UHGV virus genome: UHGV-0425465
Length of the DNA stretch: 41,610 bases
Direction: 5' to 3' (one strand)
Origin: a virus
Below the pieces are notes generated by a model, which worked only from the letters and a program-made list of their open reading frames with translations, had not been told where the DNA came from and made no database searches. Both the position numbers and the translations under genes were made by a program. Shown here in pieces: positions 1,898 to 41,610 of this stretch. Every line of letters begins with the position of its first letter. The stretch's first letter is position 1.

Positions 1898-3277
1898 ATG
1901 AGATTCACAAAGATGCTGGACTTAATCACGAATGTCCTGAATAAGGATGCGGACACGCAGGTGGATGTGTGCCTGACATCCCAGATGGCGAACCAGATAG
2001 AGTTGTGGACCCGGATGTATGAGAACCGGTCCCCCTGGGTGAATAACAAGGACGTGCTCAGTGCGAACTTAGCGCCGACCATTGCCTCAGAGATTGCGCG
2101 CCTGGTGACGCTGGAGCTCAAATCTGAGGTGACAGGTGGAACGGCGGCGGATTACCTGAATGAGCAGTATCAGCGTAAGGTGATCAAGGATTTGCGCCGG
2201 TATGTTGAATACGGATGTGCTAAAGGCGGACTGGTGATGAAGCCATACATTACCCAGCAGGGCATTGAGGTACAGTTCGTACAGGCAGACTGTTTCTTCC
2301 CATTGTCTTTCGATAGTTCCGGTCGGATTACGCAGTGTGTATTCACAGAGCAGTTCCGGAAGGGTCAGAAGATATACACCAGGCTGGAGGTACACACGCT
2401 GCAGGGAAAACGGGTACATATCACCAACCGTGCATTTGTGGCCACAAATGATTACAGCCTTGGCAGCGAAGTGGTGGTCAGTTCCATAGACAGGTGGTCG
2501 GAGCTGGTTCCGGAGCTGCTGCTTGAGGGGGCAGACCGGTTGCTGTTTGGGTACTTTAAGGTACCGTTGGCCAATGCGGACGATTCAGACAGCCCACTGG
2601 GCGTATCTGTGTTTTCCAGGGCCGTGGACCTGATCCGGGAAGCAGACAGGCGCTATTCCAACATCTGCTGGGAGTATGAGGGGACACAGCTGGCTGTCCA
2701 TATTGCCACCTCCCTGCTAAAGTACAACCAGGACCGGGACAAGTTTGAGTATCCGGGAGGTAAGGAACGGTTATACCGAAACGTGGAATACGATACAGGC
2801 GCCGCGGATAAGCCTTTCATTGACACCTTCAGCCCAGAAATAAGGGACACGGCCCTATTCAACGGCTTTAACAACCAGCTGAAGCTGGTGGAGTTCAACT
2901 GCAACTTGGCCTACGGTACCCTGTCAGATCCACAGAGTGTGGATAAGACCGCCACTGAGATTAAGACCAGCAGGCAGCGCTCCTATGTGATGGTGTCCGA
3001 TACCCAGATGGCATTACAGGATGCCCTGGAGGACCTGGTGTATGCCATGAGTTTCTGGGCGGCACTGTATGGCTTAATTCCAGCCGGCAGTGACTATGAG
3101 GTGTCATCTGATTGGGACGACAGCGTGATCGTAGATGCGGAACTGGAGCGTCAGACAGACCGGGCTGATGTAGCAATGGGCGTAATGTCCCTGGCAGAAT
3201 ACAGGGCCAAGTGGTACGGCGAAACCCTGGAGGAGGCAGCCAAGAACCTGCCGGAACCAGCATTGACGGAGGAGTGA
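1898..3277 (+). CDS. Portal protein (SPP1 gp6-like)
   Basis: 459 aa following terL; RBS GGAGGTGAGG. Confidence 0.8.
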   Translation: MRFTKMLDLITNVLNKDADTQVDVCLTSQMANQIELWTRMYENRSPWVNNKDVLSANLAPTIASEIARLVTLELKSEVTGGTAADYLNEQYQRKVIKDLRRYVEYGCAKGGLVMKPYITQQGIEVQFVQADCFFPLSFDSSGRITQCVFTEQFRKGQKIYTRLEVHTLQGKRVHITNRAFVATNDYSLGSEVVVSSIDRWSELVPELLLEGADRLLFGYFKVPLANADDSDSPLGVSVFSRAVDLIREADRRYSNICWEYEGTQLAVHIATSLLKYNQDRDKFEYPGGKERLYRNVEYDTGAADKPFIDTFSPEIRDTALFNGFNNQLKLVEFNCNLAYGTLSDPQSVDKTATEIKTSRQRSYVMVSDTQMALQDALEDLVYAMSFWAALYGLIPAGSDYEVSSDWDDSVIVDAELERQTDRADVAMGVMSLAEYRAKWYGETLEEAAKNLPEPALTEE

Positions 3278-3551: not shown

Positions 3552-5295
3552 GGAACTGGAGAAGCTGCCAAAACCATTGGAGCGCACCATGACGGCTCTG
3601 GAGCTGTCCGTCATGGATGAAATCATACAGCGCATTCAGGCGGCTGCTCAGATAACTCCGCTCATTGACTGGCTGTTGGTGAGGATGGATGCCATTGGAG
3701 CAGGCCGGGCGCGAATCAAACAGCTGATAGGTGAGGGCATCAGAAAGGCGGGTCTTCAGGTGGATGACATCTATGAACAGGCGGTCAAGTCTGACTACAT
3801 TCGCAACAAGGCAATCTATGAGGCTGCTGGCAAGGACTACCAGCCCTATGAGGACAACCAATGGCTGCAGCAAGTCGTGGATGCTGCCAGGAGGCAGACC
3901 AAGGGCAGCCTGCGGTCGCTGGAAAACATCACTCAGACCACGGGCTTCAACGTGTCGATGGGCGGCGGCCAGAAGGTATTCACGCCGCTATCCGAATACC
4001 TGGAGCGCAGCCTGGACAAGGCCATGCTGGGAATTACCACTGGCACCAGGACGTACAGCCAGGCCATTGGTGAGGTGATTGACGAGATGACGGCCAGCGG
4101 CATCCGGACGGTGGATTATGCATCTGGAAAGTCCGACCGGATTGAGGTGGCAGCAAGGCGCGCGGTGATGACGGGCGTGGCCCAGATGACCAAGCAGGTC
4201 AGCGATAGGAATGCCGAGGAGCTGGGGACGGACCATTGGGAAGTGGATTGGCACATGGGTGCACGTAACACTGGGACCGGATACCTTAATCACCAGAGTT
4301 GGCAGGGAAAGGTCTACAGTTCGGAGGAGATGCGGACAGTTTGCGGCGAGGGCGAGATGCTTGGATTTGCAGGGATTAACTGCTATCATATCAAGTTTCC
4401 TTTCCTTCTTGGAATCAGCAAGCGCAAGTACACGGATGCGTGGCTGAAAGAACAGAACCGGCGGGAAAATGAAAAGAGGGTATATAGAGGCCGGGATTAT
4501 GACACATATGCGGCATTACAGCATCAGCGCCGCCTGGAACGTACCATCCGGAAGCAGAAGCAGGATGTGGAGCTGCTGGAGAAGGCTGGAGCTGACAAGG
4601 AAGATATCACGGCGGCTAAGTGCCGGTTGCGGCTGACCAACAAGACCTATGTGGATTTCTCTAAGGAGATGGGGCTGCGGCAGCAGCGTGAACGGTTGAG
4701 GGTGCCAAAGGATATAGTTGCAGGGGATATCAAAGATGATATAATAAAAGAGATAAGACTTCCAAATGAAGCCTTGGACGCAAAGAATATTACCCCAGAT
4801 ATAGTAGATGAAATCCAATCGGGAATAGACGAAATGAAACGGGAATATGACTTTCGGATTGACCGGGCGTTAGTGCAGGATGTAAGTGACAGATACCCTG
4901 ACACCCCATACCTGACAAGGGTAGTTGATAATCATGGGTCAAGGGAAGTTGAGTTCGTGATTAATAAAGGCTATAATTTCTCTGATTTCAGAAGAATCGT
5001 GAAGACTGGTTATGAGACCGGATACTTTGCCGGCCGCACCATCGAGGACCATGCTATCCATGAAATGACCCACGTAATGGCAGGCCAACAGTTTAAAACT
5101 ATTTCTGGTTACAATGCCTTCAAAGAGCGATTGGAAAGTCAATATGTTCCAGGGGTATCTGGATATTCGGACGCCATGAAGGATGGATTTGAAACCTTGG
5201 CTGAAGCATTTGTGAGGATGAGGAATAATGAGTACGTCCCGTATGATGCTAAACAATTAGTTATAAAACATATTGAAAGGTGGCGAAAACAGTGA
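3541..5295 (+). CDS. Minor head morphogenesis protein (MuF / SPP1 gp7 family) with an extra C-terminal domain carrying HEMTH (HExxH)
   Basis: 584 aa; placed after portal; central MuF-like region (DHWEVDWHMGARNTG); coiled-coil linker; C-terminal about 150 aa with AIHEMTHVMAG. Confidence 0.7.
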   Translation: MTPEELEKLPKPLERTMTALELSVMDEIIQRIQAAAQITPLIDWLLVRMDAIGAGRARIKQLIGEGIRKAGLQVDDIYEQAVKSDYIRNKAIYEAAGKDYQPYEDNQWLQQVVDAARRQTKGSLRSLENITQTTGFNVSMGGGQKVFTPLSEYLERSLDKAMLGITTGTRTYSQAIGEVIDEMTASGIRTVDYASGKSDRIEVAARRAVMTGVAQMTKQVSDRNAEELGTDHWEVDWHMGARNTGTGYLNHQSWQGKVYSSEEMRTVCGEGEMLGFAGINCYHIKFPFLLGISKRKYTDAWLKEQNRRENEKRVYRGRDYDTYAALQHQRRLERTIRKQKQDVELLEKAGADKEDITAAKCRLRLTNKTYVDFSKEMGLRQQRERLRVPKDIVAGDIKDDIIKEIRLPNEALDAKNITPDIVDEIQSGIDEMKREYDFRIDRALVQDVSDRYPDTPYLTRVVDNHGSREVEFVINKGYNFSDFRRIVKTGYETGYFAGRTIEDHAIHEMTHVMAGQQFKTISGYNAFKERLESQYVPGVSGYSDAMKDGFETLAEAFVRMRNNEYVPYDAKQLVIKHIERWRKQ

Positions 5296-5574
5296 TTGTG
5301 ATTCCTATATGCCTAAAATGTGAATATTGTGAAAAGGGTATGAAATGCAGGGTATATCCGCAAGGCATACCTAGGGAAGTTGTATTGGCTCAAAAGCCGC
5401 CTGGGGATATATGTAAGGATTATAAATACAAACGGGAGAGTGAAGCATCTGATTAGTCAGGTGCTTTTATTATGCTTAAAAATCGGTCAGAAGATAAGAC
5501 CTAAAACAGTCAGCCGTTGGTGGATGGTTACACACCTACAAATAACCTAAGGACGGGCAGGAAAGGAAAAGAAG

Positions 5575-6108
5575 ATGAAGACAGAGGATTTGCAGGCAAA
5601 AGGATTGTCACAGGAACAGATTGATTATGTCATGGCCGAATACGGAAAGGACGTCAACGGGATTAAGCAGGAAAGGGATACCTATAAGTCCCAGCTTTCC
5701 GCAGCACAAGCTACCCTTAAGAGCTTTGAAGGCGTAAACATATCGGAGCTCCAGGGGAAGATACAGACCCTGACGGCAGACTTGGCCAACAAGGATGCTG
5801 AGTACCAAAAGCGGCTGGCGGAACGTGATTTTAACGACCTTCTGAAATCCACAGCGGAAGGCTTCAAGCCCAGGGACATTAAAGCTGTTATGCCTTTCTT
5901 GGATGTGGATAAGCTGAAAGCCAGCAAGAACCAGGAATCGGATATCAAGGCAGCCCTGGAAATAGTCAAAAAGGAAAAGGGCTATCTGTTTCAGGACGTC
6001 AGTATTCCCCGGGTGGTTGCGCCTACTCCTGGGCCTGGTGGTGAGAAAACAGATGACACAAGGACACAAGCAAACAATGCCTTAAGAAGTCTTTTAGGCA
6101 GAGAATAG
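5575..6108 (+). CDS. Scaffolding protein
   Basis: 177 aa, helical and charged, immediately upstream of the major capsid gene. Confidence 0.7.
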   Translation: MKTEDLQAKGLSQEQIDYVMAEYGKDVNGIKQERDTYKSQLSAAQATLKSFEGVNISELQGKIQTLTADLANKDAEYQKRLAERDFNDLLKSTAEGFKPRDIKAVMPFLDVDKLKASKNQESDIKAALEIVKKEKGYLFQDVSIPRVVAPTPGPGGEKTDDTRTQANNALRSLLGRE

Positions 6109-9964: not shown

Positions 9965-10521
9965 TTGGGCGGCTGCCAACATCCATCATGGTGGCAGGAA
10001 CCGAGCGGAAGGTCCGTCCTGATTTCCGCGATGTCCTGGTAATAATGCAGGCCTTTAATGACCCGGAACTGTATCCAAGCGAAAAGTATGATGTAATGCT
10101 GACTGTACTGTATGAGGAACCGGATGGAATACCTCCTGAGGCAATCCCTGAGGCAATTGAAAAGGCCCTATGGTTCCTTGATTGTGGCCAGCAGGAGACA
10201 GACAACCCATCACGGGTGAAGGTGATGGATTGGGAACAGGACGAAACCCTGGTATTCCCTGCTGTCAACAAGGTGGCTGGACAGGAAGTCAGAAACACCG
10301 AGTACATGCATTGGTGGACCTTCATGGGATATTTCATGGAGATTGACGATGGTACATTTTCGACTGTTGTCGGTATCCGGCAGAAGAAAGCCAAAGGCAG
10401 GAAGCTGGAAAAATGGGAGCAGGAGTTTTATAGGAACAACCGGAAACTCTGCGACCTCAGGAAAAGGTATACCGAAGAGGAACAGGCGGAGATTGATTAT
10501 TGGAATAAGCTATTGGGCTAA
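9961..10521 (+). CDS. Phage Gp15-family protein (second tail chaperone, gpT-like)
   Basis: 186 aa between chaperone and tape measure; overlaps previous stop. Confidence 0.6.
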   Translation: MIGRLPTSIMVAGTERKVRPDFRDVLVIMQAFNDPELYPSEKYDVMLTVLYEEPDGIPPEAIPEAIEKALWFLDCGQQETDNPSRVKVMDWEQDETLVFPAVNKVAGQEVRNTEYMHWWTFMGYFMEIDDGTFSTVVGIRQKKAKGRKLEKWEQEFYRNNRKLCDLRKRYTEEEQAEIDYWNKLLG

Positions 10522-10569
10522 GACGCAGGACAGGCGTCTTATTTTTATGCCCTGGAATGAGGTGAAGAT

Positions 10570-38716: not shown

Positions 38717-39010
38717 ACAGGCCAAAGCCAACAAGGTCCTGCGGACATCGGCCGTGGCGGCATCAGCTGAATCGGCCATCCGAGAACCGCCGCCGGATAC
38801 ATGGCCTGTCAGGATGCCGCCCTATGCATACACCAGCCTGTGCCCGGACCCGGGACTGCGCCGGCCGCCGAAGGGAGTGATACGGTACCATGAGACAGTG
38901 CTACATAGACAACGGGCGCGGGGGCTGTGATGGCCAGCGCAACAACAAGGGCAGGATACGGTATGGGTGCTGGGCATGCCCATGGCTGGATGCGGGAGGA
39001 GGTGATGCCG

Positions 39011-39511
39011 ATGAAACAGACAGAAGCGTTGGAGGAAGTGGCCAGGCTGGCCGCAAAGGAAGCCCTTAAGGAGCATGAGAAGCAGCTCCGGAGGGAAAAG
39101 AGAATAAAGGTATTCCAGAACACCAAGAAGCTGATGGAGAATTATAACCGCATTTGTCAGAGCGTGGAGGAGGGAGTGGCAGAACTGTCCGACATGGATA
39201 ATGGCGATGAACTGGAGGAGTTCACCGAGGAAGATATCTTTATCAACAGCATTCTTAAGGGCAAACTTCGGAGTATTGTCATGATAGGGCACATAGACAA
39301 GTGTCTGAAGCTCCTGGAGGATGAGGAATGCCGCAAGAATACGCATGAGAAGTATCTGGCATTCAAGTATTTCTATCTGGATGGGATGACATATGAGAGT
39401 ATTGCAGAGATTTATGGATATGGGGAACGGACGGCCAGACGGTGGATAACAGAGCTTACGGGAATACTCAGCGTATATCTCTTTGGGGCTGATGCCCTCA
39501 TGCTGGATTAG
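39011..39511 (+). CDS. ArpU-family / sigma-70 region-4-like late transcriptional regulator
   Basis: 166 aa from ATG 39011 (RBS GGGAGGAGGTG); C-terminal HTH YLDGMTYESIAEIYGYGERTARRWITEL; classic position upstream of terS. Confidence 0.65.
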   Translation: MKQTEALEEVARLAAKEALKEHEKQLRREKRIKVFQNTKKLMENYNRICQSVEEGVAELSDMDNGDELEEFTEEDIFINSILKGKLRSIVMIGHIDKCLKLLEDEECRKNTHEKYLAFKYFYLDGMTYESIAEIYGYGERTARRWITELTGILSVYLFGADALMLD

Positions 39512-39515
39512 GGGC

Positions 39516-39533
39516 TTGACAGGAGCGTGTCAA
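39516..39533. promoter_or_regulatory. Palindrome TTGACA-GGAGCG-TGTCAA just after the ArpU stop
   Basis: Perfect 6-bp arms. Confidence 0.35.
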
Positions 39534-39543
39534 AATCGTGTCC

Positions 39544-39572
39544 TTGTCATGTCCGTTTGGATGATTTATAAT
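39544..39572 (+). promoter_or_regulatory. Sigma-70 promoter TTGTCA-17-TATAAT
   Basis: Near-consensus hexamers with 17-nt spacer; no ORF downstream for about 330 nt. Confidence 0.55.
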
Positions 39573-39579
39573 TGTAATA

Positions 39580-39833
39580 TGCAAAATTGGGTGATACGAA
39601 AAAGACTTGATTTTGTTATCCTCCCCACAGATAGCGGCCGCCAGGTGTCATACCCTGGTGGCTGACTAACCGGTATTGTGTAATCCCTCATAAGACAGAC
39701 CTGTACTTTCACGGGACAATGCCGCAGGGTATGCAACCGGTAAGGTATCTGGTTTACCCCACGACATTTTCCAGATACGTTGATTTTCTCCTTTTGATTA
39801 GTCCCTGCGGATATAGCGGGGGCTTTTCTTTTG
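39580..39833 (+). ncRNA. Candidate small non-coding RNA (about 250 nt) bounded by a promoter and an intrinsic terminator
   Basis: Internal 9-bp stem-loop 39637..39662; terminator CCCTGCG-GATATA-GCGGGGGC + TTTTCTTTT at 39804..39833; no plausible plus-strand ORF. Confidence 0.4.
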
Positions 39834-39863
39834 TCAGATTTTGGTGTATCCTTTAGAATATAC

Positions 39864-39892
39864 TTGAGAAATCTTAAAAAAAGAAATATAAT
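39864..39892 (+). promoter_or_regulatory. Sigma-70 promoter TTGAGA-17-TATAAT driving the GNAT-ASCH cassette
   Basis: Hexamers with 17-nt spacer, 25 nt upstream of RBS GGGGGAGGG. Confidence 0.5.
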
Positions 39893-39916
39893 AATACAAA
39901 GACAGTAGGGGGAGGG

Positions 39917-40972
39917 ATGTATGGCGTGGGGAAAAATTTGGAGTATCTTCAGTTTCAAGATATTGATTTATCAGATGCTTTTTTTGATTCTTTAAAAGCT
40001 GATTATCGTGGATTTGAGGGATGGTTTAAAAGAAAAGGCAGTAATTGGGCATTTTTGCATAGAAATAGAAATCAGATAGATGGATTTCTATATTGCAAGT
40101 TGGAAAGAGAAAAAGTTGATGATATTACTCCTGTATTATATGCGGATAGAATTGCTAAAATCGGTACTTTTAAGATTGATTCGCATGGCACAAGGCTTGG
40201 AGAACGATTTGTAAAAAAGGCATTGGATTATGCAATATCAGAAAAAGTGGATGTTTGCTATGTGACGATATTTGAAAAGCAACAAGGCTTGATAAATCTG
40301 ATAAAAAAATACGGATTTAGAAGGTACGGAGAGAAAAGAACAGTGGACGGAACAGAATCAGTCTATGTTAAGAATATGAGAAGGCTGATTGGCGATGTTG
40401 TATTGGATTACCCGTTAGTATCTTTACATGGAGTTAAAAAGTACTTGATATCGATATATCCGCAATACCATTCAGCGATGTTTCCTGATTCGATACTAAA
40501 GACAGAAAGCGTAAATATTTTACAGGATATAACATATACGAATTCTATTCACAAGGCATATGTTTGCAGAATGTCAAACGTCGATAAGCTAAAAAGAGGG
40601 GATATATTGGTAGTTTATCGTACTGCAAGTGATGGACCAGCCGAATATAAGTCTGTTGCTAGCTCCATATGCGTAGTAGAAGGCGTGAAAAGTCAGGATT
40701 GTTTTAATTCTTTCGATGATTTTTATGATTATACCAGTAAATATAGTATTTTTGATAAAACAGAGTTGAAAAAGTGGTACGAAAAAGGTAGTTGTACTGT
40801 GATAAAAATGCTTTACAATATTGCTCTTTCTAAAAGGCTCACTAGGCATACACTTATAGAAGAAATTGGAATTCCTAGAGATGGTTATTGGGGTTTCCTG
40901 AGAATAACAGATGAACAATTAAAAAACATATTGAAGGCTGGGGGCATAGATGAAAGCATTATTGTCGATTAA
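39917..40972 (+). CDS. GNAT-fold acetyltransferase fused to a C-terminal ASCH/PUA-like domain (AT-rich)
   Basis: 351 aa; GNAT motif-B-like NLIKKYGFRRYGEK; C-terminal half begins KKYLISIYPQYHSAMF, resembling the ASCH N-terminus of the next gene (MKALLSIKPEFIAEIV). Confidence 0.55.
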   Translation: MYGVGKNLEYLQFQDIDLSDAFFDSLKADYRGFEGWFKRKGSNWAFLHRNRNQIDGFLYCKLEREKVDDITPVLYADRIAKIGTFKIDSHGTRLGERFVKKALDYAISEKVDVCYVTIFEKQQGLINLIKKYGFRRYGEKRTVDGTESVYVKNMRRLIGDVVLDYPLVSLHGVKKYLISIYPQYHSAMFPDSILKTESVNILQDITYTNSIHKAYVCRMSNVDKLKRGDILVVYRTASDGPAEYKSVASSICVVEGVKSQDCFNSFDDFYDYTSKYSIFDKTELKKWYEKGSCTVIKMLYNIALSKRLTRHTLIEEIGIPRDGYWGFLRITDEQLKNILKAGGIDESIIVD

Positions 40973-41327
40973 ACCAGAGTTTATTGCAGAGATTGTTGCA
41001 GGAAGTAAAAAGTTTGAATATCGCAAGGTATCATTTAAGAAAGAGGTAGACTCTGTTGTGGTATATGCATGTATGCCTATAGGAAAAATTGTTGGAGAGT
41101 TCAAAGTAGGTGATATCATAGCAATGCCACCCAATGATTTGTGGAAAACAACAAAAGACTATTCTGGGATATCGTATAAGTTTTTTTGTCAGTATTTTAA
41201 GGGAAGAAAAAACGCATATGCAATACAAATTAAAGAGTATATTCCATATGAGGCGCCAATAGATCCCTATAAAGAGTTTGAACATTTTGTGCCACCGCAG
41301 TCATATCGATACTTAGCAGATGTCTGA
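40950..41327 (+). CDS. ASCH-domain protein (PUA-like; YqfB-like fold)
   Basis: 125 aa; MKALLSIKPEFIAEIVAGSKKFEYRK … VGDIIAMPPNDLW typical ASCH. Confidence 0.6.
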   Translation: MKALLSIKPEFIAEIVAGSKKFEYRKVSFKKEVDSVVVYACMPIGKIVGEFKVGDIIAMPPNDLWKTTKDYSGISYKFFCQYFKGRKNAYAIQIKEYIPYEAPIDPYKEFEHFVPPQSYRYLADV

Positions 41328-41428
41328 TGGAATCAAAAAGAAATAATGAGTTATGTAGCGATATTTCAAAGGGCCACCTCCGGGCGGCTCTTTTCTATAC
41401 CCAAAACGACGAATCGAGGTGAGGAGGC

Positions 41429-41610
41429 ATGGCCAGGGCGCCAGACCCAAGAATCGAACAGGCGAAGGCCATGTATCTGGAAGGCAGGAAACTAGTTGAG
41501 ATTGCAAGTCAACTAAATTTGCCGGAGGGAACGGTCCGCCGGTGGAAGTGCACACACAAGTGGAATAACGAGCGTTCGGATAGAGTTAGCGAACGTTCGC
41601 AAAGAAAACG
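41429..41610 (+). CDS. terS: Terminase small subunit, N-terminal part (3'-truncated; continues in frame at nt 1)
   Basis: MARAPDPRIEQAKAMYLEGRKLVEIASQLNLPEGTVRRWKCTHKWN = TerS HTH N-terminus; RBS GAGGTGAGGAGG. Confidence 0.7.
   Translation, partial: MARAPDPRIEQAKAMYLEGRKLVEIASQLNLPEGTVRRWKCTHKWNNERSDRVSERSQRK

What the first reader, a model, noticed from the sequence alone, without database searches (positions are those of the whole stretch)
39544..39833. Stand-alone promoter-to-terminator transcript (about 250 nt) with no ORF: candidate phage sRNA upstream of the GNAT-ASCH cassette
A near-consensus promoter (TTGTCA-17-TATAAT, 39544..39572) is followed by about 250 nt lacking any credible plus-strand ORF. 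A strong internal stem-loop (GCCGCCAGG-TGTCATAC-CCTGGTGGC, 39637..39662) precedes a canonical intrinsic terminator (39804..39833). A second promoter then drives the downstream genes, so this unit is an independent transcription unit rather than just a leader. It could be a regulatory sRNA, a structured RNA, or an attenuator acting on readthrough from the ArpU gene.
Basis: seen in the sequence. Interest (0 to 1): 0.55.

Follow-up and report, generated by a model that had tools for sequence, protein, structure and literature searches.

The report
Structured leader RNA of phage late operon
The promoter-to-terminator unit is real and non-coding. It is the conserved, structured leader of this gut-Clostridia phage's late (DNA-packaging) operon, a slot that related phages fill with tRNA genes, and not a free-standing small-RNA gene.

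Summary
TTGTCA-17-TATAAT lies at 39544-39572. A roughly 255-nt stretch follows with no conserved ORF, containing the hairpin at 39635-39664. A strong intrinsic terminator lies at 39800-39833 (dG -18.7 kcal/mol).

The interpretation needs changing. The promoter sits 33 nt after a regulator gene with a sigma-region-4-type HTH. That gene is not a verifiable ArpU. The promoter is embedded in TGTC/GACA boxes that change together with the regulator's recognition helix. This promoter region is the best-conserved non-coding sequence in 80 related loci.

In relatives without the GNAT-ASCH insert, the same promoter, leader and terminator directly precede the small terminase gene (terS). In 58 of 61 distinct loci at least one terminator lies between this promoter and terS, usually 25-50 nt before the start codon with no promoter found in between.

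So the unit is the late-operon leader, an analogue of lambda PR'-6S RNA-tR'. Late genes would need terminator read-through; this is inferred, not shown.

The RNA is modular. P2 covaries strongly, M4 modestly, and M3 is nearly invariant in sequence. Unpaired segments are C-rich. It matches no Rfam family. About 20 relatives carry tRNA-Met or tRNA-Ile in the same slot. Whether the RNA acts in cis or in trans is unresolved.

The parts
39011..39511 (+). Late-regulator-like gene of 166 aa from ATG 39011. Databases often call a 193-aa form starting upstream. It has an N-terminal long helical hairpin and a C-terminal sigma-70 region-4-type HTH.
   Evidence: phrog_1558; weak HTH_23 and Sigma70_r4_2 hits. 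30 of 71 family members hit Sigma70_r4_2. The AF2 model has pLDDT 89.9, and its best PDB matches are sigma-E region 4 bound to -35 DNA. No ArpU model hit.
39516..39554 (.). Array of GACA/TGTC boxes: TTGACA 39516-21, TGTCAA 39528-33, TGTCC 39539-43, TGTCA 39545-49, TGTCC 39550-54. Inferred operator of the upstream regulator. It overlaps the -35.
   Evidence: Unique in the 41.6-kb genome. Conserved in 80 loci. All boxes switch together to TGGC in L048 and L072, and to GTCA in L071 and L078. The L071/L078 switch coincides with a change in the recognition helix (RTVRRW to RTVWRW); the L048/L072 switch coincides with GYGERT to GYAERT just before it.
39544..39572 (+). Late promoter: -35 TTGTCA, 17-nt spacer, -10 TATAAT.
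   Evidence: 11 of 12 matches. The -10 is TATAAT in nearly all of 57 distinct relatives; TACAAT, TAGAAT and TATACT occur once each.
39575..39580 (+). Second -10-like hexamer TAATAT, 2 nt after the -10. The motif TATAAT-NN-TA(A/G/T)TAT is conserved. Its role is unexplained.
   Evidence: Conserved across the family and in C. difficile phage phiCDKH02 as TATAAT-GG-TAGTAT.
39581..39616 (+). P1, a 5'-proximal hairpin: GCAAAAUUGGGU ... ACUUGAUUUUGU.
   Evidence: It is weak on its own (dG -9, z -1.0). The sequence CAAAAUU is conserved, but the structure is only partly conserved in distant loci.
39620..39626 (+). Unpaired C-rich tract CCUCCCC, complementary to a Shine-Dalgarno sequence.
   Evidence: Invariant in 14 close relatives. 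A C-rich tract precedes P2 in distant loci and behind other promoters.
39635..39664 (+). P2, a 12-bp hairpin with a 6-nt loop of consensus R-U-N-A-Y-A. It is the best-supported RNA structure in the unit.
   Evidence: 30 distinct sequences: 95.8% of cells paired, 6 of 12 pairs with compensatory double changes, many G-U pairs. The covariance model scores 54.4 bits on + against 7.7 bits on - and finds a single copy in the window. All 80 hits in the relatives are on the + strand.
39666..39744 (+). M3, a roughly 79-nt domain with almost invariant primary sequence (...GUGUAAUCCCUCAUAAGACAGRCCUGUAC...ACGGGACAAUGCCGCAGGGUA...).
   Evidence: Present in 38 viral contigs and 6 Lachnospiraceae genomes. 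Predicted helices are 87-100% compatible but show only one-sided wobble changes. The domain fold alone is not significant (z -1.15).
39745..39778 (+). M4, an 8-bp hairpin with a conserved C-rich loop (UUUACCCCACGACAUUUU here; UUUUAUCCCCCAUGACGUUUU in most relatives).
   Evidence: 92.5% paired. Two pairs change on both sides between clades (CUGG/CCAG against CCGG/CCGG) while the loop sequence is kept.
39784..39795 (+). CU box UUUUCUCCUUUU directly upstream of the terminator.
   Evidence: It recurs in front of several different terminators in relatives. It accounts for the weak sub-threshold Rfam matches to sRNA 3' ends.
39800..39833 (+). Intrinsic terminator: AGUCCCUGC-GGAUAUA-GCGGGGGCU plus UUUUCUUUU.
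   Evidence: dG -18.7 kcal/mol, z -4.3. Terminators of different sequence occupy the same position in relatives.
39831..39892 (+). Promoter(s) of the inserted accessory cassette: TTGTCA-17-TAGAAT and TTGAGA-17-TATAAT.
39917..41327 (+). Low-GC accessory insert between leader and terS: an acetyltransferase-like gene (39917-40972) and an ASCH-like gene (40950-41327).
   Evidence: GC is 0.30-0.38 against roughly 0.39-0.65 in the flanks. phrog_6345 and phrog_13728; ASCH is just below the Pfam cut-off. It is absent from most relatives, which carry other genes or nothing here.
41368..41401 (+). Second terminator-like hairpin plus U tract, ending 37 nt before the terS start codon.
   Evidence: dG -15.3 kcal/mol, z -2.7. 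My own scan finds it; the consensus tool does not list it. The same design precedes every terS class in relatives.
41429..41610 (+). 5' part of terS, the small terminase and first late gene. It continues at window position 1.
   Evidence: Joining the window end to its start gives one intact ORF that matches the L003 terS. That protein hits Phage_terminase PF10668.

Best explanation
The unit is the promoter-proximal leader cassette of the phage's late (packaging and morphogenesis) operon.

1. The regulator encoded immediately upstream has a sigma-region-4-type HTH. It is inferred to bind the TGTC/GACA boxes at 39516-39554 that surround the -35, and so to control the promoter at 39544-39572.
2. 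Transcription starts near 39579. That position is inferred; no TSS was mapped.
3. The transcript is non-coding and structured: P1, a C-rich spacer, P2, M3, M4 and a CU box. It runs into a strong intrinsic terminator at 39800-39833.
4. Polymerases that stop there release a discrete RNA of about 255 nt. This parallels the 6S RNA made from lambda PR' to tR'.
5. No promoter of its own was found for terS. It lies behind this terminator, behind the GNAT-ASCH insert, and behind a second terminator 37 nt upstream of its start codon. Late genes can therefore only be expressed by polymerases that read through.
6. So the cassette gates late expression. It also insulates late genes from read-through out of the regulator gene.

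The body of the leader is a swappable slot for non-coding RNA. This phage carries P2-M3-M4; relatives carry tRNA-Met or tRNA-Ile there.

Shown here: the elements themselves, their conservation, the covariation of P2 and (modestly) M4, the promoter-terminator-terS order across relatives, and the absence of another detectable promoter. Inferred: regulator binding, timing of expression, read-through or antitermination, and any activity of the released RNA.
For: - Promoter, hairpin and terminator are present.
- The promoter region is the most conserved non-coding sequence in 80 loci fetched through the regulator protein, at about 80% nt identity where the protein is 63-70% identical.
- The boxes are unique in the genome. 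They change together with the regulator's HTH in two independent variant types.
- The regulator's C-terminal domain models as sigma region 4, the domain that reads -35 elements of the TTGACA type.
- In L001 and L049 the scans find one promoter, one terminator and then terS.
- terS lies 149-3532 nt downstream of the regulator in all 60 distinct relatives where it could be located. All large intervening ORFs are co-oriented with it.
- 58 of 61 distinct loci have at least one hairpin plus T-tract between promoter and terS. The last one usually ends 25-50 nt before the start codon. This holds for all terS classes, with unrelated hairpin sequences.
- Identities of the terS classes are confirmed.
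- The same RNA module sits behind different late regulators and promoters that have direct-repeat boxes.
- C. difficile phage phiCDKH02, whose regulator is 43% identical, has repeats, TATAAT-NN-TAGTAT, a C-rich tract and a terminator in the same order.
- In staphylococcal phages, Ltr/RinA binding repeats lie just after the ltr gene, and a terminator lies between ltr and terS (PMC3152322, PMC3753634).
- tRNAs occupy the same slot in relatives.
Against: - There are no transcript data. The start site, the termination efficiency and read-through are all unmeasured.
- The regulator has no Q-like fold. Only 4 of 71 family members give weak Phage_antitermQ hits.
- The published model for the related Ltr proteins is promoter activation, not antitermination (PMC3753634).
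- The -35 and -10 are near consensus, so the promoter could be constitutive rather than late.
- Leaky termination, without any dedicated antitermination, could be enough.
- The scans cover only sigma-70-type promoters. A non-canonical promoter just upstream of terS cannot be excluded.
- The strong sequence conservation of M3 and of the M4 loop argues that the RNA does something of its own, which a pure 'gate' model does not explain.
Confidence: 0.55

Rival explanations
1. It is an autonomous trans-acting small RNA. The roughly 255-nt terminated transcript would be the functional product. Its unpaired C-rich segments would pair with G-rich ribosome-binding sites of host or phage mRNAs, as the C-rich motifs of RsaE/RoxS do in Firmicutes. 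The segments are the CCUCCCC spacer, the M4 loop and the CU box. This is compatible with the leader model rather than exclusive of it.
For: - It is a discrete promoter-to-terminator unit of typical sRNA size.
- The C-rich segments are unpaired in the predicted folds and conserved while the stems vary.
- The M3 primary sequence is almost invariant.
- The module behaves like cargo. It travels between phages with different late promoters and is exchanged with tRNAs.
- Sub-threshold Rfam matches are to the CU-rich 3' ends of sRNAs.
Against: - No target was found. Duplex predictions against all translation-initiation regions of the phage gave only z-scores of about -2.5 to -3.3, on partly spurious ORFs.
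- There is no homology to any Rfam sRNA.
- C-rich complementarity to ribosome-binding sites is unspecific.
- The position is always in the late-operon leader and never elsewhere.
Confidence: 0.25
2. It is a cis-acting processive antitermination RNA. The nascent leader, with P2 as the core, would bind the transcribing polymerase and make it resistant to the downstream terminators. HK022 put, Bacillus EAR, Tn916 canT and pLS20 conAn2 work this way.
For: - It lies where such elements must lie: downstream of the promoter, upstream of every terminator, and strand-specific.
- Late genes lie behind two or more terminators.
- Second P2 copies occur after inserted genes, again just upstream of a terminator.
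- Cis-acting antiterminator RNAs are now known in Gram-positive mobile elements (PMC11658703).
Against: - L047, L048, L049, L050, L058, L070 and L078 lack P2, M3 and M4. Apart from L058, where terS was not located, each still has a terminator between the same promoter and terS; L048 has four.
- M3-M4 is replaced by tRNAs in other relatives.
- The unit's own strong terminator immediately follows the element.
- No match to any Rfam family was found.
Confidence: 0.12
3. It is a ligand- or factor-sensing attenuator (riboswitch-like). M3-M4 would be a sensor whose state decides between the terminator and an antiterminator helix.
For: - A conserved structured domain lies directly upstream of an intrinsic terminator.
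- CCGCAGGG in M3 (39722-39729) is perfectly complementary to the 5' arm of the terminator, CCCUGCGG (39803-39810).
Against: - That complementarity shrinks to a generic 6 bp (GCAGGG against CCYUGC) in relatives. It disappears where M3-M4 is joined to a different terminator type, GGGCAUCCUAGAGGUAGGGUGUCC.
- M3-M4 is dispensable in many relatives.
- There is no Rfam riboswitch match.
Confidence: 0.05
4. It has no RNA function. The region would be a recombination-prone spacer whose only role is to carry the terminator of the regulator operon.
For: - The region is a mosaic hot spot where modules, tRNAs and accessory genes are exchanged.
Against: - P2 shows compensatory changes, and its G-U pairs are valid only in + strand RNA.
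- The M4 stem changes while its loop is conserved.
- M3 is more conserved than the neighbouring stems.
- The module is retained behind unrelated promoters.
Confidence: 0.03

Closest known systems
Lambda late control module: Q gene, PR' promoter, 6S RNA, tR' terminator
   Same: The order of parts is the same. A regulator gene is followed at once by a sigma-70-type promoter with regulator sites. A short non-coding transcript (194 nt in lambda, about 255 nt here) ends at an intrinsic terminator. The late genes, with co-oriented accessory inserts that have their own promoter and terminator, lie beyond it.
   Different: The regulator is not a Q protein; its DNA-binding domain is sigma-region-4-like. 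No promoter-proximal pause element could be established. The second -10-like hexamer lies only 2 nt after the -10. Unlike what I recall for lambda 6S RNA, the leader here is a conserved, structured and modular RNA. Antitermination is inferred, not shown.
Ltr late-regulator superfamily of Gram-positive phages (RinA, ArpU, LtrA = Sigma70_r4 type, LtrB, LtrC) and their ltr-terS intergenic regions (PMC3152322, PMC3753634)
   Same: The gene sits directly upstream of terS. It has sigma-region-4-like similarity. Repeats lie immediately after the regulator's coding sequence. A terminator lies between the regulator gene and terS. A single late promoter is proposed.
   Different: This protein matches neither the ArpU nor the RinA models. 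In the staphylococcal phages the terminator is placed upstream of the mapped terS 5' end. Here the promoter-like element with the boxes lies upstream of the terminator. A conserved structured RNA or tRNA slot was not found in the passages of those papers that I read.
Cis-acting processive antitermination RNAs: HK022 put, Bacillus EAR, pLS20 conAn2, Tn916 canT (PMC11658703)
   Same: All are structured RNAs in the 5' leader of a long operon of a mobile element. All lie upstream of terminators and are orientation-specific.
   Different: No Rfam family matched. The element is absent from relatives that keep the terminators. Activity is untested.
C-rich base-pairing sRNAs of Firmicutes (RsaE/RoxS type)
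   Same: A promoter-to-terminator RNA of 100-300 nt, with several unpaired C-rich motifs able to pair with ribosome-binding sites.
   Different: No homology was found. No target was identified. It is fixed in an operon leader rather than being an independent locus.

Membership tests
Lambda-type Q / PR'-6S-tR' late antitermination module | Regulator gene immediately upstream of a sigma-70-type late promoter that carries regulator sites. | tested here: met
   The stop codon is at 39509-39511, the boxes at 39516-39554 and the promoter at 39544-39572.
Lambda-type Q / PR'-6S-tR' late antitermination module | Intrinsic terminator between the late promoter and the first late gene, with no other promoter in between. 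| tested here: met
   Terminators at 39800-39833 and 41368-41401. 58 of 61 distinct loci have at least one. L001 and L049 have one promoter, one terminator and then terS. Only sigma-70-type promoters were scanned.
Lambda-type Q / PR'-6S-tR' late antitermination module | The regulator belongs to a Q protein family by sequence or fold. | tested here: not met
   Only 4 of 71 family members give weak Phage_antitermQ hits (best E 0.0016). The fold search returns sigma region 4 and no Q structure.
Lambda-type Q / PR'-6S-tR' late antitermination module | Sigma-dependent promoter-proximal pause element in the initially transcribed region. | tested here: inconclusive
   A conserved second -10-like hexamer exists (TAATAT 39575-39580). 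It lies 2 nt after the -10, closer than the pause element of lambda as I recall it. Function is not testable here.
Lambda-type Q / PR'-6S-tR' late antitermination module | Regulator-dependent read-through of terminators. | not testable with these tools
   This needs reporter assays or in vitro transcription.
   Pfam and NCBIfam give no ArpU hit; only HTH_23, Sigma70_r4_2 and sigma70-ECF below the cut-off. The PHROG is phrog_1558, of unknown function.
LtrA-type (Sigma70_r4) late regulators, Ltr superfamily | Sigma-70 region-4-like C-terminal domain. | tested here: met
   30 of 71 members hit Sigma70_r4_2 and 13 of 71 hit Sigma70_r4. In the model, the best match is sigma-E region 4 with -35 DNA, target-normalised TM 0.76.
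LtrA-type (Sigma70_r4) late regulators, Ltr superfamily | Gene located directly upstream of terS, with repeats just after the coding sequence and a terminator in the intergenic region. | tested here: met
   (homologues sit at the right end of isolated phage genomes), compared with PMC3753634.
LtrA-type (Sigma70_r4) late regulators, Ltr superfamily | The protein is required and sufficient for terS transcription. | not testable with these tools
   This needs genetics. Co-variation of the boxes with the recognition helix is only suggestive.
Cis-acting antitermination RNAs (put, EAR, canT, conAn2) | Strand-specific structured RNA between the promoter and the terminators. | tested here: met
Cis-acting antitermination RNAs (put, EAR, canT, conAn2) | Homology to a described antiterminator RNA family. 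| tested here: not met
   No Rfam 15 match at gathering thresholds over the window. Nothing relevant at E up to 10 in 39400-40000.
Cis-acting antitermination RNAs (put, EAR, canT, conAn2) | The element is present wherever downstream terminators must be overcome. | tested here: not met
   P2 is absent from L047-L050, L070 and L078, which keep terminators before terS. It is also absent from L058, where terS was not located.
RsaE/RoxS-type C-rich sRNAs | Own promoter and terminator, with unpaired C-rich motifs. | tested here: met
RsaE/RoxS-type C-rich sRNAs | Sequence or structure homology, or an identifiable conserved target. | tested here: not met
   No Rfam match. The target scan is indistinguishable from noise.
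tRNA or tRNA-like element | Cloverleaf recognised by tRNA detectors. | tested here: not met
   ARAGORN finds none in the window. There is no Rfam tRNA match even at E up to 10. M3 is 79 nt and contains CUCAUAA, but no cloverleaf can be drawn.
Riboswitch or attenuator | Conserved, mutually exclusive terminator and antiterminator pairing. | tested here: inconclusive
   There is an 8-bp complementarity in the window. It is not maintained with the alternative terminator types in relatives.

The most novel reading that the evidence does not exclude
Sigma-region-4-type 'Ltr-like' late regulators of Firmicutes phages would control late genes through processive terminator read-through from a single promoter next to their own gene, in a Q-like logic with an unrelated protein. 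The promoter-proximal leader would be a dedicated expression slot for functional RNAs. P2-M3-M4 would then be a new family of phage RNA that acts late in infection, in trans or on the transcription or translation machinery, and is interchangeable with tRNA genes.
Probability: 0.3. Interest if true: 0.75.

Novelty: new variant of a known kind. Interest (0 to 1): 0.55.

Why it matters
Late-gene control in temperate phages of Gram-positive bacteria is attributed to 'activators' (RinA, ArpU, Ltr) whose mechanism is unknown. In this group of gut Lachnospiraceae phages the order is unambiguous and conserved: regulator gene, boxes with the promoter, leader, terminator, then terS. That makes a testable case for terminator read-through as the controlling step. 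It might also help explain the reported RinA requirement for sequences more than 155 bp upstream of the mapped terS 5' end.

The analysis also defines a structured RNA that matches no Rfam 15 family. P2 has clear covariation, and M3 and M4 have conserved sequence. The RNA is found in dozens of phages and prophages of Enterocloster and related gut Clostridia.

Finally, the late-operon leader emerges as a hot spot where non-coding RNAs, tRNAs and accessory genes are exchanged, some of them resembling defence genes.

Tried and rejected
- **Known RNA family.** Rfam 15 gives nothing at gathering thresholds over the whole window, apart from an unrelated GP20-b motif. At E up to 10 in 39400-40000 there are only sub-threshold matches to generic terminator and CU-rich 3' ends. 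Rfam on 18 relatives found only tRNAs and one group II intron fragment.
- **tRNA or tmRNA.** None in the window.
- **DNA similarity to isolated phages or plasmids.** No match. An exact 33-mer of P2 has no hit in viral contigs.
- **Hidden small ORF.** Rejected. ORFs are not conserved, indels break the frame and there is no codon periodicity.
- **ArpU identity of the upstream gene.** Rejected.
- **Q-like fold of the regulator.** Not found. No PDB sequence relative was found beyond generic HTH domains.
- **Antiterminator pairing between M3 and the 5' arm of the terminator.** Present in the window but not maintained in relatives.
- **P2 as a multi-copy, nut-like site.** There is a single copy in this genome.
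- **P2 as a requirement for passing terminators.** Rejected by relatives that lack it.
- **Target prediction for the C-rich segments against all start regions of the phage.** No convincing target.
- **Literature.** A search for RinA/Ltr antitermination and one for phage small RNAs in Lachnospiraceae returned nothing relevant.
Full report
**1. The observation**

- TTGTCA-17-TATAAT lies at 39544-39572, 11 of 12 matches.
- A hairpin is centred on 39637-39662. It extends to a 12-bp stem at 39635-39664 (dG -23.5 kcal/mol, z -4.2).
- An intrinsic terminator has its stem at 39800-39824 and a U tract to 39833 (dG -18.7, z -4.3).
- A second promoter-like site, TTGAGA-17-TATAAT, lies at 39864-39892 ahead of the GNAT-like gene.

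Promoter-like matches in this region are not more frequent than in shuffles (14 found against 11.1 +/- 3.2). The consensus match by itself is therefore weak evidence. The case rests on conservation, described below.

The + strand transcript folds better than shuffles (z -3.56), while the - strand does not (z -1.53).

No ORF is credible. The 45-aa and 60-aa + strand ORFs and the 130-aa - strand ORF are not maintained in 14 close relatives. Indels of 1, 2 and 4 nt occur. Variable columns are spread 25/26/23 over the three codon phases.

**2. Context**

The window is a complete, circularly permuted phage genome. Joining its end to its start gives one intact small-terminase ORF.

Upstream of the unit lies a 166-aa protein gene (39011-39511). 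The 'ArpU' label does not hold.

- Pfam and NCBIfam give only weak HTH_23, Sigma70_r4_2 and sigma70-ECF matches. PHROGs places it in phrog_1558, of unknown function.
- Across 71 diverse homologues, 30 hit Sigma70_r4_2, 13 hit Sigma70_r4, 4 hit Phage_antitermQ weakly and 1 hits DUF1492.
- A confident AF2 model (pLDDT 89.9) shows a long N-terminal helical hairpin plus a C-terminal domain. The best PDB matches of that domain are sigma-E region 4 bound to -35 DNA. The Foldseek E-values are not significant (probability 0.99), and the N-terminal part finds nothing.
- Close homologues come from Enterocloster clostridioformis and E. bolteae, Hungatella, Lacrimispora and other Lachnospiraceae.
- In isolated phages of C. 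difficile, C. perfringens, Butyrivibrio and Brevibacillus, several homologues lie near the right end of the genome map. Some are annotated as sigma-factor-like.

This corresponds to the Sigma70_r4 (LtrA) class of late transcriptional regulators described for Gram-positive phages (PMC3753634).

Downstream of the unit lie a low-GC GNAT-like/ASCH-like insert (GC 0.30-0.38), a second terminator-like hairpin (41368-41393, dG -15.3) and then terS (ATG 41429).

**3. The promoter is the conserved late promoter**

Eighty loci were fetched through the regulator protein, at 63-99% identity. In all of them the 70-80 nt after the stop codon are the best-conserved non-coding sequence. Identity there is about 80% even where the protein has diverged to 63-70%.

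The conserved pattern is CTTGACA-N5-6-TGTCAAAAT-NN-TGTCC-TTG-NNN-TGTCC-N8-GAT-TTATAAT-NN-TA(A/G/T)TAT-(G/C)CAAAATT.

- The boxes are all variants of TGTC or GACA, the core of a -35 hexamer. That fits a sigma-region-4-type reader.
- They are unique in the genome.
- They change in concert. All boxes become TGGC in L048 and L072, and GTCA in L071 and L078.
- The two GTCA lineages share an R-to-W change in the recognition helix (RTVRRW to RTVWRW). The two TGGC lineages share GYGERT to GYAERT.

With two lineages each this is suggestive, not proof, that the regulator binds the boxes.

A second -10-like hexamer 2 nt after the -10 is conserved throughout. It is also present in C. difficile phage phiCDKH02, whose regulator is 43% identical. 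There three ATGATA repeats, TGTTATAAT-GG-TAGTAT, a C-rich tract and a terminator follow in the same order. I cannot explain this tandem motif.

**4. What lies downstream in relatives**

terS could be located in 60 distinct relatives, 149-3532 nt after the regulator gene. There are at least four terS classes. Three match GP3_package, Terminase_2 and Phage_terminase. The fourth matches no terminase model and is called terS from its position and sequence.

- In about half of them, nothing but non-coding sequence lies in between.
- Where genes are inserted, the large ORFs are all co-oriented with terS.
- In L001 and L049 the scans find one promoter, one terminator and then terS, 32-38 nt later.
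- Using my own hairpin-plus-T-tract scan, 58 of 61 distinct loci (the window included) have at least one terminator between the promoter and terS. The last one typically ends 25-50 nt before the start codon.
- The three exceptions (L005, L008, L013) have an imperfect hairpin followed by CTCTTTCCCT.
- The hairpins before terS have unrelated sequences in different loci but hold the same position. So the structure, not the sequence, is what is kept.
- No sigma-70-type promoter was found between these terminators and terS, either in the window or in the loci scanned.

The order promoter, leader, terminator(s), terS is therefore the conserved design. Late genes must be transcribed through terminators. 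The late region of the window also contains internal + strand terminator-like sites, at 5442-5467 and 10519-10541, and no strong promoter.

This is the architecture of lambda Q-PR'-6S-tR'. It also resembles what was reported for staphylococcal phages, where repeats lie just after the ltr gene, a terminator lies between ltr and terS, and RinA needs sequences more than 155 bp upstream of the mapped terS 5' end (PMC3152322, PMC3753634).

That read-through is active, as regulator-dependent antitermination, is my inference. The alternative is leaky termination. The regulator is not Q-like in fold.

**5. Anatomy of the RNA**

The leader is modular.

- **P1 (39581-39616).** A weak 5' hairpin. Its sequence, rather than its structure, is conserved.
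- **CCUCCCC tract (39620-39626).** Unpaired. It is invariant in close relatives, and a C-rich tract precedes P2 in distant ones.
- **P2 (39635-39664).** The best-supported element.
  - In 30 distinct sequences, 95.8% of cells pair.
  - 6 of 12 pairs show changes on both sides. All shifted registers collapse to 16-53% paired.
  - Many G-U pairs would be A-C mismatches on the other strand.
  - A covariance model scores 54.4 bits on + against 7.7 bits on -.
  - It finds one copy in the window. All 80 hits in the relatives are on the + strand.
- **M3 (39666-39744).** Nearly invariant in sequence across 30 distinct copies. Its predicted helices are 87-100% compatible but vary only by one-sided wobble changes. 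The structure is therefore plausible but unproven.
- **M4 (39745-39778).** It keeps a C-rich loop, UUU(U)AYCCCCCAYGACRUUUU. Its stem changes from AUCUGG/CCAGAU to CCCGG/CCGGG between clades. 92.5% of cells pair, and 2 pairs show compensatory changes.
- **CU box (39784-39795).** It precedes the terminator here and precedes several other terminators in relatives.

No Rfam 15 family matches.

**6. The slot is exchangeable**

- About 20 relatives carry tRNA-Met (CAU) or tRNA-Ile (UAU) between P2 and the terminator, in place of M3-M4. In L020, M4 directly follows the tRNA.
- Others have only P1, P2, M4 and a terminator, about 130 nt in all (L061-L063, L069). Others have P1, P2, a terminator and then terS (L001, L005, L008).
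- L047, L049 and L050 have only about 25 nt before a terminator and terS.
- L027, L036 and L040 have an ORF inserted after a first P2-like hairpin, followed by a second P2 with M3-M4.
- L059-L075 and L060 have a P2, CU box and terminator after inserted genes.
- The CCUCCCC-P2-M3-M4-terminator module also occurs behind different late-regulator genes. Their promoters have direct-repeat boxes (GGCGGTTTT x2, ATGTTCG x2, TGTTCG x3, TTTTCACGG x2) and an extended -10 of the TGnTAATAT type.

The RNA is therefore an independent module tied to the late-operon leader, not to one regulator.

**7. Mechanism**

I commit to the late-operon leader, or gate, model at confidence 0.55. The unit is the promoter-proximal part of the late operon. 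Its terminator stops both read-through from the regulator gene and unmodified late transcription. Terminated transcripts accumulate as a roughly 255-nt RNA.

What the RNA body does remains open.

- A cis-antiterminator role, as for put, EAR, canT or conAn2 (PMC11658703), fits its position. It is weakened by relatives that lack P2, M3 and M4 yet keep the terminators.
- A trans-acting role fits several facts: its cargo-like behaviour, the exchange with tRNAs, the conserved unpaired C-rich segments and the invariant M3 sequence. No target emerged.
- A riboswitch-like switch is unlikely. The 8-bp pairing between M3 and the terminator in the window is not preserved with other terminator types.

**8. 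Novelty and verdict**

The kind of thing is known: a late-operon leader with a terminator, and a phage-encoded small RNA. Three features appear undescribed, as far as Rfam 15 and my literature searches could show.

- The specific RNA (P2-M3-M4).
- Its interchange with tRNAs.
- The consistent promoter-terminator-terS order behind sigma-region-4-type regulators.

I rate it a new variant of a known kind, with interest 0.55.

Noticed in passing
window 41429-41610 joined to 1-~520: The window is a complete, circularly permuted phage genome. The small terminase ORF runs across the end-to-start junction without interruption.
   Followed up: yes
window 5485-5549 (+): The only Rfam match at gathering threshold is a GP20-b RNA motif (RF03003, 50 bits, E 3e-08). 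It lies just after a terminator-like hairpin at 5442-5467 and ahead of the ORF at 5575-6108.
   Followed up: no
window 39567-39580; L125 (phiCDKH02) ~3021-3034: A tandem -10-like motif, TATAAT-NN-TA(A/G/T)TAT, is conserved behind this regulator family, as far as a C. difficile phage whose regulator is 43% identical. Its spacing fits neither an extended -10 nor the pause element of lambda PR' as I recall it.
   Followed up: partly
L003, L004, L006, L007, L010-L013, L015, L020, L026, L028, L029, L033, L034, L042, L043, L051 (about 300 nt after the regulator gene): tRNA-Met (CAU) or tRNA-Ile (UAU) genes sit in the late-operon leader between P2 and the terminator. Further conserved hairpin modules precede them, for example GAAGCUGACGUUCUCC...AGCUUCGCAAAUCGGAUAGAG, which covaries with AAAGCC/GGCUUU in L071, L074 and L076. 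These modules match no Rfam family.
   Followed up: partly
L009 ~4790-4810, also L016, L017, L023, L061, L063, L069, L082, L086, L100, L105: Accessory genes inserted after the leader terminator in relatives have promoters containing CGAACATATGTTC-type palindromes (GAAC-N4-GTTC). These resemble the Firmicutes LexA box, which would suggest SOS-controlled accessory genes.
   Followed up: no
gap between regulator gene and terS in L014, L073, L048, L009, L033: The same hot spot holds varied accessory genes, some resembling defence genes. They include an HD-domain phosphohydrolase (HD + HD_assoc), an AAA_15/AAA_21 ATPase, and DUF4062 and DUF6731 proteins. A large protein in L033 that looks like a P-loop NTPase was not scanned. 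All are co-oriented with the late operon.
   Followed up: partly
window 39917-41327: The GNAT-like protein has no Pfam hit. It is assigned only through phrog_6345 and phrog_13728 (acetyltransferase). The ASCH assignment is just below the Pfam cut-off (21.0 against 21.2 bits). The cassette has much lower GC (0.30-0.38) than its flanks.
   Followed up: partly
window 38927-39011: Public gene calls for the regulator mostly use a 193-aa form that starts about 80 nt upstream, in a GC-rich stretch. Distant homologues are about 165 aa, and GGAGGAGG precedes ATG 39011. The shorter form is therefore more likely.
   Followed up: partly
L059 7432-7505: A match to the catalytic domain of a group II intron (RF00029, 45.4 bits) lies downstream of the packaging-gene start in one relative.
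   Followed up: no
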